Assembly: GCA_003220265.1 (NCBI GenBank) | Contig: QHRW01000118.1 | Coordinates: 23,186-87,185, forward strand | Source of the DNA: Candidatus Rokuibacteriota bacterium | GTDB lineage: Bacteria > Methylomirabilota > Methylomirabilia > Rokubacteriales > CSP1-6 | Length of the DNA stretch: 64,000 nt | Reading direction: 5' to 3' | Part shown: in pieces, positions 26,726-28,831 of the stretch | How the letters are laid out: each line of letters starts with the position of its first letter | How positions within the stretch are numbered: position 1 is the stretch's first letter | The notes under the pieces: model-generated | What the model was told of the DNA's origin: nothing | Databases searched by the model: none | What the model saw: the letters and a program-made list of their open reading frames with translations, nothing else | Program-made: the position numbers and the translations under genes

Positions 26726-26977
26726 TTGGACGGGCAGACCACTTTCGTGAATCGCGAGCGCGTCCCCGATCGACTCGAGCGGCGAATTCGCTTCGGCTGC
26801 GGGTTCGTGGCCGGGAGTATTCTCGGAGTGCTCGGGGCACTGTACCTTTTGGCCGACAATCTGTTTACGTGTGCACTGTTGGGAGCCGGCGTGGCGCTAC
26901 TTTTTGGGATTCTCGCGGTTCGATACGGTGACCGCTTCTGGTACGGGCTTCGTCATCTGCTGTGGTTCTGGTCGTGA
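26726..26977 (+). CDS. Small two-TM membrane protein (cassette-like ORF)
   Basis: Hydrophobic 83-aa ORF ending just before the attC remnant at 26981; alternative GTG at 26747. Confidence 0.55.
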   Translation: MDGQTTFVNRERVPDRLERRIRFGCGFVAGSILGVLGALYLLADNLFTCALLGAGVALLFGILAVRYGDRFWYGLRHLLWFWS

Positions 26978-26980
26978 GTC

Positions 26981-27011
26981 GCACCAACGCCACTGATCGT
27001 GATCGTTAGGC
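26981..27011 (+). other. attC remnant (centre deleted)
   Basis: Right after the stop: ...CCAAC (R''-like), then CACTGATC-GTGATC-GTTAGGC (L'-6 nt-R' core GTTRRRY). Confidence 0.45.
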
Positions 27012-27161
27012 CTCACCAGGGTATGCCCGCGTGTTCGCCAAGTCGCACCGGCCGCGTTCATCTGCGCAAGGACGGCGAAGAAGTCTAGGTTGGCGGCGAC
27101 GTCGTGGACGTGATACGTGGCGAGGTGAATCTCTAGACGTCGGAACGGAATCGGTGACCCG

Positions 27162-28061
27162 ATGCGGGACGGGCGAGCAAGTCGCACGGCGGAACAGAAC
27201 GCGCTCTTTCGCGCGCTCGAGTCGGCGCTTCCCGCGCGCAAGCGGCTCTTCAACGACCCGCTTGCTCGGAGCTTCCTCACGTGGCCACTCTCGCTTGTCG
27301 CTCGCCTGGGGGTTATGCCCGGCCTTCGCGAAATGGTGCCCTGGCTCATCGACAGCCGCTGGCCGGGGGTGCGCTCCTCCGTCGTCGCACGCACAAGGCT
27401 CATCGACGATGCGCTGGCAACCTCACTCGGAGGTCAGATCGACCAGCTCGTCATCCTTGGTGCGGGTTTCGACTCGCGAGCGTATCGTCTTCCCTGCTTG
27501 CACGGCGCCACCGTTTTCGAAGTCGACCATCCGGATACGCAGACCGCCAAACGAAAGGTGCTGGAGTGCATCCTTTCCGTCCCGCCGAAACACGTTCGCT
27601 TCGTCGCCATCGACTTCGACCGGCAGAACCTGGAGTCCGTCATGGCTGCTGCTGGCTACCGCGAGTCGGCGCGCACCTTCATTCTCTGGGAAGGCGTCAC
27701 GAACTATCTGACGGAAGCCGCCGTCGATACCACCCTGCGGTGGTGTTCGCGCGCGGCGGCCGGCAGCCTCCTCCTCTTCACGTACGTCCACCGCGACGTC
27801 TTGACGCGGCCGAGCGAATACATCGGCACCAAGAATCTGTTCGCGTCCCTCGCGAGTGCCGGGGAGAGGCTGACATTCGGGATCGAGCCCAGCCAGCTGC
27901 CCGAGTTCCTGGCGACCCGCGGCCTGTCCCTGGAGAGCGATGTGGGTGCCGCAGAGTATAGGGCGCGCTACTTCAAGGACGCGGCACGTAAGATGCGCGG
28001 GCACGAGTTCTATCGCGTCGCGCTGGCCCGCGTTGGTCCGCCTGACAACAGGCTCGTATGA
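27162..28061 (+). CDS. SAM-dependent methyltransferase, leucine carboxyl methyltransferase (LCM) family
   Basis: ALFRALES, DPLA, ARTRLID, QLVILGAGFDSRAYRL, FEVDHP, WEGVTNYL. Confidence 0.9.
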   Translation: MRDGRASRTAEQNALFRALESALPARKRLFNDPLARSFLTWPLSLVARLGVMPGLREMVPWLIDSRWPGVRSSVVARTRLIDDALATSLGGQIDQLVILGAGFDSRAYRLPCLHGATVFEVDHPDTQTAKRKVLECILSVPPKHVRFVAIDFDRQNLESVMAAAGYRESARTFILWEGVTNYLTEAAVDTTLRWCSRAAAGSLLLFTYVHRDVLTRPSEYIGTKNLFASLASAGERLTFGIEPSQLPEFLATRGLSLESDVGAAEYRARYFKDAARKMRGHEFYRVALARVGPPDNRLV

Positions 28062-28185: not shown

Positions 28186-28461
28186 ATGATGATGCTGATA
28201 GCAATAAGCCTGTTGGTGGGCCTGGTCGTACCCAACATCCTCCTCCGCCCAACCCGCGCATCGGTAGGTGCACTCGTTCTCATGGTCGCCGGCCTTGCTT
28301 GCCTCGCTATCGCGAAAACTTCGCTCTGGCGGCAGGGCATCTGGACCTCTTGGGGGTCGCGGCGGATGACGAAGAGGTACGCGATCCTGTACAAGTGGGC
28401 GTGGGTGGGAATTGCCAGCGGGCTTTTACTCCTGCTGTTCACATGGCGATTGACGGGCTGA
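28186..28461 (+). CDS. Three-TM small membrane protein (cassette ORF)
   Basis: Hydrophobic C-terminal part of ORF 27940..28461; its TGA stop lies inside the attC R'' box (GGCTGAC). Start uncertain. Confidence 0.6.
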   Translation: MMMLIAISLLVGLVVPNILLRPTRASVGALVLMVAGLACLAIAKTSLWRQGIWTSWGSRRMTKRYAILYKWAWVGIASGLLLLLFTWRLTG

Positions 28462-28523
28462 CTTCTCAGTGCAGCGGACCGGGTCTCGCGTTGCTCGCCC
28501 TCCGGCCGCTGACCGCGCGCGTT
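28456..28523 (+). other. Integron attC recombination site interrupted at its R' core by IS110
   Basis: R'' GGCTGAC-TTCTC-L'' AGT[G]CAGC-GG[A]CCGG ... CCGGCC-L' GCTGACC-GCGCGC-R' GTT. The arms pair with two extrahelical bases and 5/6-nt spacers. Confidence 0.7.
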
Positions 28524-28543
28524 GATATGACTTCCGCTGTCAA

Positions 28544-28831
28544 GCGCCAGGATGGCGCGCGGACCACACCGCGGCTGGCTGCTTGCCTTCATGGTGGGTG
28601 CTCGAGCCACCGGAAGAGACGGAGCCTGTAACTGCGACGGTTGATCATGCTGATATCCGTGGGTTGGGTACCACCTTACTTGTGTCCGTCGCGGCGCCTG
28701 CTTCGCTCTAGGGTCGAGGATCGTGGCCTCGTAACGCGCCCGAAGATTGCGCCGATACCGGGGCCGCACCTCCGCCGATGGCTCGAGTTCCTCATCGATA
28801 TAGTTGCCGGTCAGTTCCAGAGTCTCTGTCG
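28544..28831 (-). ncRNA. Putative bridge/seek RNA of the IS1111-type element
   Basis: Non-coding region 3' of the transposase. It contains GCGCGTTA (matches the reconstructed target) 5' of GATATCAG (matches the circle junction). RNA boundaries are unknown. Confidence 0.55.

What the first reader, a model, noticed from the sequence alone, without database searches (positions are those of the whole stretch)
28544..28831. Guide-like segments of a bridge/seek RNA readable directly from the IS non-coding end
Seen, in the transposase direction: GCGCGTTA (28739-28732) is the reverse complement of the reconstructed target strand TAACGCGC spanning the insertion point. Downstream, GATATCAG (28657-28650) matches the predicted circle junction CATATC|AG over 7 nt. 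The order, target loop then donor loop, is that of IS110 bridge RNAs. A left-target guide could not be assigned by eye. Inference: a programmable recombinase naturally aimed at the conserved CGTTA of attC sites.
Basis: partly seen in the sequence, partly recalled or inferred. Interest (0 to 1): 0.7.

Follow-up and report, generated by a model that had tools for sequence, protein, structure and literature searches.

The report
Guide RNA of attC-targeting insertion sequence
The non-coding tail of this jumping gene encodes a folded guide RNA whose short loops match the integron recombination site it sits in and its own ends; this is a well-supported new example of the RNA-guided mechanism first described in 2024, so it is ordinary in kind.

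Summary
In this window alone they are only modestly unlikely (both by chance: 0.6%). Fifty-two related elements settle the matter. The 187-nt stretch 28787-28601 (minus strand) is a conserved structured RNA: a long closing stem and two internal-loop modules. Ninety percent of pair cells are paired, and 30 pairs show changes on both sides.

GCGCGTTA lies on the 5' side of the first loop. Across relatives it follows the target sequence (0 of 20,000 shuffles reach the observed match). [quoted passage not shown] No guide for the left-end side of the donor was found.

The target is a genuine attC. Uninterrupted relatives read ...GCGCGCGTTAGnn, and one lies beside an integron integrase gene. The element is split inside the R' core GTT|AGAA. 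That is a different sub-site from ISKpn4/ISPst6, and the transposase is only 27-32% identical to those.

Verdict: correct reading, known mechanism, new lineage. There is no expression or activity evidence.

The parts
28523..30059 (-). Whole insertion sequence, 1537 bp. One A is ambiguous between 28523 and 30060. Reading on the minus strand: left extension GACAG (30059-30055), left sub-terminal repeat, transposase gene, 3' non-coding region, right sub-terminal repeat, right extension TCA (28525-28523).
   Evidence: The same end structure occurs in 59 homologous loci. Uninterrupted attC relatives and loose ends at 28523 fix the right boundary. Contigs that leave the window at 30059-30063 fix the left boundary.
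28832..29947 (-). Transposase gene, 371 aa, intact. It has an N-terminal DEDD (RuvC-like) domain and a C-terminal Tnp domain with [10 protein letters not shown].
   Evidence: translation. PF01548 E 7e-23, PF02371 E 4e-22. NF033542 'IS110 family RNA-guided transposase', 278 bits against a cut-off of 140.
30043..30054 (-). Left sub-terminal inverted repeat, TATGACTTCCGC.
   Evidence: pair I7, 12 nt, 100% complementary. In relatives the inner positions change together on both arms, for example TTCCAC/GTGGAA and TCCCTT/AAGGGA.
28526..28537 (-). Right sub-terminal inverted repeat, GCGGAAGTCATA.
28601..28787 (-). Bridge/seekRNA-like structured RNA, 187 nt. A long closing stem (about 28787-28762 with 28626-28601) encloses a target-binding module and a donor-binding module.
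   Evidence: 47 pairs; 90% of cells paired against 36-45% when partners are slid; 30 pairs with changes on both sides; 0 of 500 shuffles reach the observed values. No Rfam family matches.
28693..28753 (-). Target-binding module. Stems GGCGC/GCGCC and CTTC/GAAG, an internal loop, and an apical hairpin CGAGG..CCTCG (28731-28727 with 28719-28715).
   Evidence: helices 2, 3, 4.
28732..28739 (-). Target guide 1, GCGCGUUA, on the 5' side of the internal loop. It pairs with the transposase-sense DNA strand 5'-TA|ACGCGC-3' across the insertion point, 8 of 8 at this site.
   Evidence: covariation over positions -2..+6, 0 of 20,000 permutations. The apparent mismatches in L012 and L025 are U-G wobbles.
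28707..28713 (-). Target guide 2, CCCUA, plus GA, on the 3' side of the same loop. CCCUA has the sense of the left flank and would pair with the opposite strand. GA matches the first bases of the element's left end, like a handshake guide. At this site CTA+GA match; an ideal site would read GTTAGGG.
   Evidence: left-flank positions -5..-2 covary, 0 of 20,000 permutations. Examples: L013 GTCTAGAC, L014 TTTCAGA, L007 CTAAGAC, and L019 GTCTCGTCAG where the left end is GTCAG.
28635..28691 (-). Donor-binding module. Stem CGACGG/CCGTCG, 5' loop ACACAAGUAAG, hairpin GUGG..CCAC, 3' loop GGAUAUCAGCAUGAUCAA.
   Evidence: helices 5, 7. It is the most conserved part of the RNA. Single copy in the window.
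28649..28657 (-). Donor guide within GAUAUCAGC. AUAUCA has the sense of the right end. The next G equals left end +1 in the circle junction. GC can also pair, with one G-T wobble, to the first two bases of the right flank, like a handshake guide.
   Evidence: runs of 7 and 8 in at least 85% of loci. (right end -3 covaries: 78% against 46% expected); a C in the guide occurs only with a C in the right end, whereas a U occurs with C or T.
28538..28543 (-). -35 hexamer TTGACA. After circularisation it would lie 17 nt from CAGTAT (30057-30052), giving a junction promoter. TTGAC is invariant in the 19 relatives aligned.
   Evidence: No sigma-70-like promoter in the linear element. The junction promoter itself is inferred from ISEc11 and IS621 (PMC11187229, PMC11208158).
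28455..28522 (+). Body of the interrupted attC site, on the cassette strand. R'' is GGCTGAC (28455-28461), overlapping the stop codon of the upstream ORF. The L''/L' arms are CAGCGGACCGG / CCGGCCGCTG. R' begins at G28521.
   Evidence: 66-nt match at 88% identity to uninterrupted attC relatives. One relative (L154) lies in an array next to an integron integrase gene fragment (TIGR02249, E 9e-60).
30060..30066 (+). Rest of the attC R' core, (T)AGAAAG, and the start of the next cassette.
28628..28631 (-). UUAC. Candidate pseudoknot partner of GUAA (28679-28676) in the 5' loop of the donor module.
   Evidence: helix 6: 96% paired, with A-U to C-G in 7 sequences and U-A to C-G in 1. Its function is unknown.

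Best explanation
The 3' non-coding region of an intact IS1111-type insertion sequence of the IS110 family encodes a bridge RNA (seekRNA).

**Proposed mechanism**
1. The element excises as a circle.
2. Joining its ends places an invariant TTGACA in the right end 17 nt from a -10-like hexamer in the left end. Transposase and the downstream RNA are then transcribed.
3. The RNA folds into a closing stem with two internal-loop modules.
4. In the first module, GCGCGUUA pairs with one DNA strand across TA|ACGCGC. CCCUA pairs with the other strand to the left of the cut. The two overlap at the dinucleotide TA.
5. In the second module, AUAUCA pairs with the element's right end at the circle junction.
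6. Two bases after each 3'-side guide (GA and GC) can pair with the partner DNA after strand exchange.
7. The DEDD/Ser recombinase then joins the circle to the target.

Here the target is the R' core (GTT|AGAA) of an integron attC site.

**Shown:** the RNA structure by covariation, guide/target covariation, the donor match, attC identity, and an intact gene and ends.

**Inferred:** transcription, processing, protein binding and activity.
For: - Both words are present.
- The structure is conserved: 90% of cells paired against 36-45% when slid, and 30 pairs with double changes.
- Guide 1 covaries with the target: 0 of 20,000 permutations, span -2..+6.
- Guide 2 covaries with the left flank: 0 of 20,000 permutations.
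[quoted passage not shown] ATATCAGC fits the right end/right flank junction with one wobble.
- Mismatches are wobble-compatible in the expected direction.
- The transposase hits PF01548, PF02371 and NF033542.
- The 12-bp sub-terminal repeats are perfect.
- The architecture, the position 3' of the gene, and the order 'top-strand match 5' of bottom-strand match' are those reported for IS1111 seekRNAs (PMC11187229). The loop order and handshake guides are those of IS621 (PMC11208158).
- The attC identity rests.
Against: - No RNA data exist for this organism; only soil DNA runs hold the sequence.
- No circle-junction or empty-site joint was seen in contigs.
- No guide for the left-end side of the donor was found.
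- The -10 of the putative junction promoter is weak here (CAGTAT, 3 of 6).
- Guide 2 matches only 3 of 5 target bases at this particular site.
- The loci are related to each other, so the permutation tests overstate independence. The retargeted members are scattered among them, however.
Confidence: 0.9

Rival explanations
1. The matches are chance, and the non-coding region is only a spacer or a set of protein-binding sites for the transposase.
For: In the window alone, an 8-mer spanning the target is expected by chance in 4% of shuffles and a 7-mer spanning the donor junction in 14%. No transcript evidence exists.
Against: The guides change with the target in relatives. The helices show compensatory changes on both sides. 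Both are hard to explain for duplex protein-binding DNA.
Confidence: 0.03
2. The conserved fold acts as single-stranded DNA, for example during replication or in the excised circle, and pairs with the folded attC strand. It would be a DNA guide, not an RNA guide.
For: attC sites act as folded single strands. Guide 1 has the same sequence as the cassette top strand and so would pair with the attC bottom strand, which is the strand IntI recombines. Covariation cannot tell RNA from ssDNA.
Against: G-U/G-T wobble-type tolerance is strand-specific in the sense expected of a transcript of the transposase strand. Related IS1111 elements were shown to co-purify with RNA from this same region (PMC11187229).
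Confidence: 0.04
3. The RNA guides target choice only, like the 82-nt seekRNA core. The donor ends are read by the protein through the 12-bp sub-terminal repeats, and the ATATCAG match is a by-product of end conservation.
For: No left-end-side donor guide was found. Only one donor-guide position varies, so its covariation is thin (50 of 20,000 permutations, and confounded by phylogeny). The short seekRNA sufficed for ISEc11 (PMC11187229).
Against: The second module is the most conserved part of the RNA. ATATCAG sits in an internal loop with the same geometry as guide 2. A C in the guide is found only with a C in the right end. Donor loops are reported for IS1111 elements (PMC11208160).
Confidence: 0.2

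Closest known systems
ISKpn4 / ISPst6 / ISPa21 (and ISPa25): the IS1111-attC group, with an experimentally shown seekRNA (Siddiquee et al. 2024, PMC11187229)
   Same: - IS1111-type layout: sub-terminal repeats, with the guide RNA 3' of the transposase gene.
- Two short segments in one internal loop match opposite strands of an attC site, with the top-strand match 5' of the bottom-strand match.
- The transposase gene is oriented against the cassettes.
   Different: - The transposase is only 32% (partial) and 27% identical to ISKpn4 and ISPa25.
- ISKpn4 sits between R'' and L'' (TAACAATT|...|CAAGCC). This element splits the R' core (GTT|AGAA) at the other end of attC.
- Hosts are soil, uncultured lineages rather than Pseudomonas or enterobacterial plasmids.
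IS621 bridge RNA (IS110 group; Durrant et al. 2024 PMC11208160; Hiraizumi et al. 2024 PMC11208158)
   Same: - A target loop followed by a donor loop.
- Each loop is an internal loop whose two sides read opposite DNA strands and overlap at a core dinucleotide.
- Two extra bases after the 3'-side guide fit the partner DNA (handshake guides).
- A DEDD plus Ser recombinase.
   Different: - The RNA lies 3' of the gene, not 5'.
- Seen in transposase direction, the strand polarity of the guides is mirrored.
- The sub-terminal repeats are 12 bp against 2-3 bp.
- No left-end-side donor guide is recognisable.
- A long closing stem encloses both modules, and there is a candidate pseudoknot.
ISSso6, ISPye17, ISSfr2 (ISfinder entries; sequences from the source data of PMC11187229)
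   Same: These are the nearest named transposases: 55%, 56% and 51% identity over the full length. ISSso6 has the same end structure (TTGACA, sub-terminal repeat, ATATCA) and the same donor-module sequence.
   Different: No guide or target assignment for these was found in the papers read here. The ISSso6 copy examined lies inside another IS, not in an attC.

Membership tests
IS110-family RNA-guided transposase | N-terminal DEDD (RuvC-like) domain and C-terminal Tnp domain with a conserved S/T-G | tested here: met
   PF01548 (E 7e-23) and PF02371 (E 4e-22). NF033542 at 278 bits against a cut-off of 140. [10 protein letters not shown] is in the translation.
IS1111 group | Sub-terminal inverted repeats of 7-17 bp with short terminal extensions | tested here: met
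   A 12-bp perfect repeat, with extensions of 5 nt (left) and 3 nt (right).
IS1111 group | The longer non-coding region lies downstream of the transposase gene | tested here: met
   309 nt downstream (28831-28523) against 112 nt upstream (30059-29948).
IS1111 group | The transposase clusters with IS1111 proper in a phylogeny | not tested
   Only pairwise identities were obtained: 55% to ISSso6 and 27-32% to ISPa25/ISKpn4. No tree was built.
Bridge RNA / seekRNA | A conserved structured RNA with internal loops in the non-coding end | tested here: met
   90% paired, 30 pairs with double changes, and slid controls at 36-45%.
Bridge RNA / seekRNA | Two target guides read opposite strands, overlap at the core, and covary with the target | tested here: met
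   both give 0 of 20,000 permutations.
Bridge RNA / seekRNA | Donor guides for both sides of the circle junction | tested here: inconclusive
   The right-end side is present. The left-end side was not found.
Bridge RNA / seekRNA | The RNA is transcribed, binds the transposase and is required for transposition | not testable with these tools
   Only DNA metagenome runs hold the sequence.
IS1111-attC group (ISPst6/ISKpn4/ISPa21) | Inserted in an integron attC site in one orientation | tested here: met
   attC identity. The transposase gene runs opposite to the cassettes both here and in ISKpn4.
IS1111-attC group (ISPst6/ISKpn4/ISPa21) | The same insertion position, between R'' and L'' | tested here: not met
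   ISKpn4 reads TAACAATT|IS|..CAAGCC. This element lies inside R', GTT|AGAA.
IS1111-attC group (ISPst6/ISKpn4/ISPa21) | Transposase closely related to the group (more than about 70% identity within it) | tested here: not met
   32% identity over 205 aa to TnpKpn4.
Any Rfam family | A match at the gathering score | tested here: not met
   only three sub-threshold matches, none in 28601-28787.

The most novel reading that the evidence does not exclude
This widespread lineage (soil Methylomirabilota/Rokubacteria-type genomes through to marine Alteromonadales) may use a 'three-guide' bridge RNA. It would have two target guides and one donor guide for the right end. The left end would be read by the protein through the long sub-terminal repeat, and a conserved pseudoknot (GUAA/UUAC) would lock the donor module. 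It would have evolved attC targeting independently of the ISKpn4 lineage, aimed at the very box where the integron integrase crosses over. Insertion would then disable cassette excision at that site.
Probability: 0.2. Interest if true: 0.5.

Novelty: new member of a known kind. Interest (0 to 1): 0.35.

Why it matters
The result adds a second, independent lineage of RNA-guided insertion sequences aimed at integron attC sites, and it uses a different sub-site, the R' core. It also supplies a natural series of some 50 related elements whose guides and targets change together, including three fully retargeted members. That series documents the pairing rules: an 8-nt guide, a guide of about 5 nt, a core of the form NA, wobble tolerance, and handshake-like bases, all for an IS1111-type scaffold that has not been studied at the bench. 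This is useful for annotating integron arrays and for choosing new programmable recombinases. It does not change the known mechanism.

Tried and rejected
Copies in the window's own genome could not be counted.
- **Rfam** at a permissive threshold gave nothing in the RNA region.
- **Other placements of the element's ends** were considered: a CA core giving target TAGACAACG, and a TA core giving TATCAACG. Both were rejected, because uninterrupted attC relatives read GCGCGCGTTAGnn.
- **Mutual information** between RNA columns and end positions was swamped by the split into two clades and gave no left-end guide.
- **A family-wide complementarity scan** found no run of 5 or more to the left-end top strand. 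UACUG(G)CU in the 3' multiloop fits AG-A-CAGTA with one mismatch. It does not follow left end +5 and is itself paired within the RNA, so it was not assigned.
- **An integrase next to the island** was sought and not found. The flanking genes are a luciferase-like monooxygenase and CoA transferases.
- **A circle junction or empty site** was sought in four soil runs. None was seen, but contigs drop rare forms.
- **The metagenome scan** with a 20-mer of the attC arm returned mostly chance hits in GC-rich genes. About 15 true attC relatives were picked out by their flanks.
- **A covariance model** was not built.

Full report
**What is at the site**

The minus strand carries a 371-aa open reading frame at 29947-28832. 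It has the two domains of IS110-family transposases, PF01548 and PF02371. It also passes NCBI's model NF033542, 'IS110 family RNA-guided transposase', at 278 bits against a cut-off of 140. A perfect 12-bp inverted repeat, TATGACTTCCGC, lies at 30054-30043 and 28537-28526. The repeat is sub-terminal, and the long non-coding region (309 nt) lies downstream of the gene. This is the IS1111 layout described in PMC11187229 and PMC11208160.

**Ends and target**

I fetched 80 loci encoding relatives of the transposase (56-86% identity). In 59 of them a pair of sub-terminal repeats could be defined. All show the same junctions: left flank ...[C/A]TA | GACA[G/T/C] + repeat, and repeat + [T/C]CA | ACGC... 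right flank.

Two other placements of the ends were possible by eye. A scan of metagenome contigs with 20 nt of the right flank removed them. Among many chance hits, about 15 contigs carry an uninterrupted repeat of the same family. An example is CGTCTAAC-ATCGCAGTGCAGCGGACCGG-AGCTCGCGATGCTCGCC-CCGGCCGCTGACCGCGCGCG-TTAGACCC (L144). Others end in TTAGGG, TTAGTG, TTAGCG or TTAAGG.

These repeats have the attC boxes R'' (RYYYAAC) and R' (GTTRRRY) and paired inner arms with a bulged base. They recur within contigs. In L154 two copies lie next to an ORF that matches the integron-integrase model TIGR02249 (E 9e-60, C-terminal half).

The window's site is therefore an attC. R'' is GGCTGAC at 28455-28461, overlapping a stop codon. 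The R' core GTT|AGAA is split by the element, with one ambiguous T/A. Soil contigs that follow the window up to 28523 and then read AGGCGG... confirm the point.

No integrase lies beside the low-GC island at 26.4-32.2 kb. The array is therefore of the integrase-less kind.

**The RNA**

An alignment of the non-coding regions shows a conserved block of about 190 nt. RNAalifold, and a pair count on a structure I specified, give these features:
- a long closing stem;
- a first module at 28753-28693, with an internal loop and an apical hairpin;
- a second module at 28691-28635, of the same design.

Of 1220 pair cells, 90% are standard pairs. The figure is 36-45% when the partners are slid. Thirty of 47 pairs show changes on both sides, and no shuffle of 500 reaches the observed values. 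Rfam has no matching family.

**Target guides**

GCGCGUUA is the 5' side of the first internal loop. Its reverse complement was compared with the target (2 nt of left flank plus 7 nt of right flank) in 35 non-redundant loci. Cognate pairs match 5.29 of 7 right-flank positions against 3.85 for shuffled pairs, and 0 of 20,000 permutations reach that.

Naturally retargeted members are the clearest cases:

| Locus | Guide | Target |
|---|---|---|
| L007 | AAGGACTT | TAA\|GTCCTT |
| L009 | CAGCGCTG | TCA\|GCGCTG |
| L014 | CAATATTG | TCA\|ATATTG |
| L005 | GGTCGTTA | TA\|ACGACC |
| L068 | GGAAGTTA | TA\|ACTTCC |
| L074 | GGGTGTTA | TA\|ACACCC |

The 'mismatches' in L012 and L025 put a guide U opposite a target G, which is a wobble.

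CCCUA has the sense of the left flank, and GA equals the first two bases of the element. Left-flank positions -5 to -2 covary (0 of 20,000). Examples are L013 GTCTAGAC, L012 GCCTAGAC, L014 TTTCAGA and L007 CTAAGAC. In L019 the left end itself is GTCAG and the RNA reads GTCTCGTCAG.

The two guides read opposite strands and overlap at TA, as the seekRNA and bridge-RNA papers describe. At this site guide 1 matches 8 of 8 and guide 2 matches 3 of 5. An uninterrupted relative, L128 (GCGCGCGTTAGGG), would match both fully.

**Donor guide**

GGAUAUCAGC lies on the 3' side of the second loop. AUAUCAG equals right end -6..-1 plus left end +1 in at least 85% of 53 loci. AUAUCAGC also fits right end -6..-1 plus right flank +1..+2 if one G-T wobble is allowed.

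Only one position varies. Elements with right end ATACCA carry AUACCAG. A guide C never occurs with a right-end T, whereas a guide U occurs with either base. That is what pairing to the opposite strand with wobble predicts.

The GA after guide 2 and the GC after the donor guide are placed like the handshake guides of IS621. Read on the cassette strand, the whole scheme becomes that of IS621: the 5' guide reads the bottom strand on the left, the 3' guide reads the top strand on the right, and handshake bases follow. This explains the 'reversed order' reported for IS1111 elements (abstract of PMC11187229).

I found no guide for the left-end side of the donor.

**Expression**

The linear element has no sigma-70-like promoter or terminator. 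The right end carries an invariant TTGACA (28543-28538). After circularisation this would lie 17 nt from CAGTAT in the left end. In relatives that hexamer is CATAAT or CATTAT. This matches the junction promoter known for ISEc11 and IS621, but it is inferred here.

The sequence occurs only in soil DNA runs. Contigs of four runs show no circle or empty-site joint. They do show that the donor module is highly repeated in those soils, with summed word depth 760-1940 against 4-7 for the flanks.

**Comparison with known elements**

The nearest named transposases are ISSso6 (55%), ISPye17 (56%) and ISSfr2 (51%). ISKpn4 and ISPa25, the attC-targeting elements with a shown or predicted seekRNA, are 32% (partial) and 27% identical.

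An ISKpn4 copy in a class 1 integron sits between R'' and L'' (TAACAATT|...|CAAGCC). That is the other end of attC. This element therefore works like those elements but is not a member of their group. ISSso6 carries the same donor-module sequence.

**Verdict**

The mechanism has been known since 2024, including for attC-targeting IS. The new points are the lineage, the sub-site and the natural covariation series. No expression or activity evidence exists.

Noticed in passing
29948-29958 and 30025-30035 (minus strand, 5' leader): A perfect 11-bp inverted repeat, GGCUGACCUCC / GGAGGUCAGCC. Its downstream arm contains the GGAGG ribosome-binding site and ends at the ATG. This hairpin could block translation of the transposase from read-through transcripts (pair I17).
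   Followed up: no
30002-30057 (minus strand): A weak match (18 bits, E 0.7) of the element's left end to Rfam RF02470, the Mycobacterium sRNA Ms_IGR-8. The match includes CAGUAUGACUUCCGCGAG. That 'sRNA' family may itself be the end of an IS1111-type element.
   Followed up: no
28768-28777 and 30021-30030: A 10-nt perfect complementarity between the 5' leader (ACCUCCGCCG) and the 5' arm of the RNA's closing stem (CGGCGGAGGU) (pair I18). It may be chance in GC-rich sequence, or a link between leader and guide RNA.
   Followed up: no
30059/30060, runs X3 and X4: In two soil runs the downstream cassette (30060-30300, identical) is joined to a different attC-like sequence (...GCCGCCGCTCAATAGGCGCG|C TAGAAAGG). 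This replaces both the element and the upstream attC. The cassette therefore occurs in another context, and the break is at the element's left boundary.
   Followed up: partly
26975-27017 and 30429-30470 (plus strand): Short palindromic remnants ending in GTTAGGC and GTTAGAC, for example CTCAACGCCGGCCCGTTAGAC. They look like collapsed attC sites. The array seems eroded and has no integrase in the window.
   Followed up: partly
L003 and L031 (relatives): Both target guides of each element encode C at the base just left of the cut (TC|AC and CCTC|GA), while the DNA has A there. The agreement of the two guides suggests that this core base in the product came from the donor.
   Followed up: no
L068 and L070 (two Alteromonas species): The same insertion site (ATA|ACTTCCAAAT) is occupied in both. 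Guide 1 matches in L068 (AGGAAGTTAT) but not in L070 (AGGGTGTTAT).
   Followed up: no
28635-28701, runs X1-X4: The summed contig word depth over the donor module is 760-1940 against 4-7 for the flanking cassettes. This RNA scaffold is very abundant in these soil metagenomes.
   Followed up: no
L201 (Pseudoalteromonas sp. Bsw20308 pPBSW1, 127363-152457): Three IS110-family transposase genes lie on one strand within a run of small co-oriented genes on the other strand. This looks like a cassette array colonised several times. No integrase lies within 12 kb.
   Followed up: no
27162-28061 (plus strand): The cassette upstream of the element encodes a leucine carboxyl methyltransferase-family protein (PF04072, E 7e-48). 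A 99-aa ORF without a family match follows it in the same cassette.
   Followed up: no
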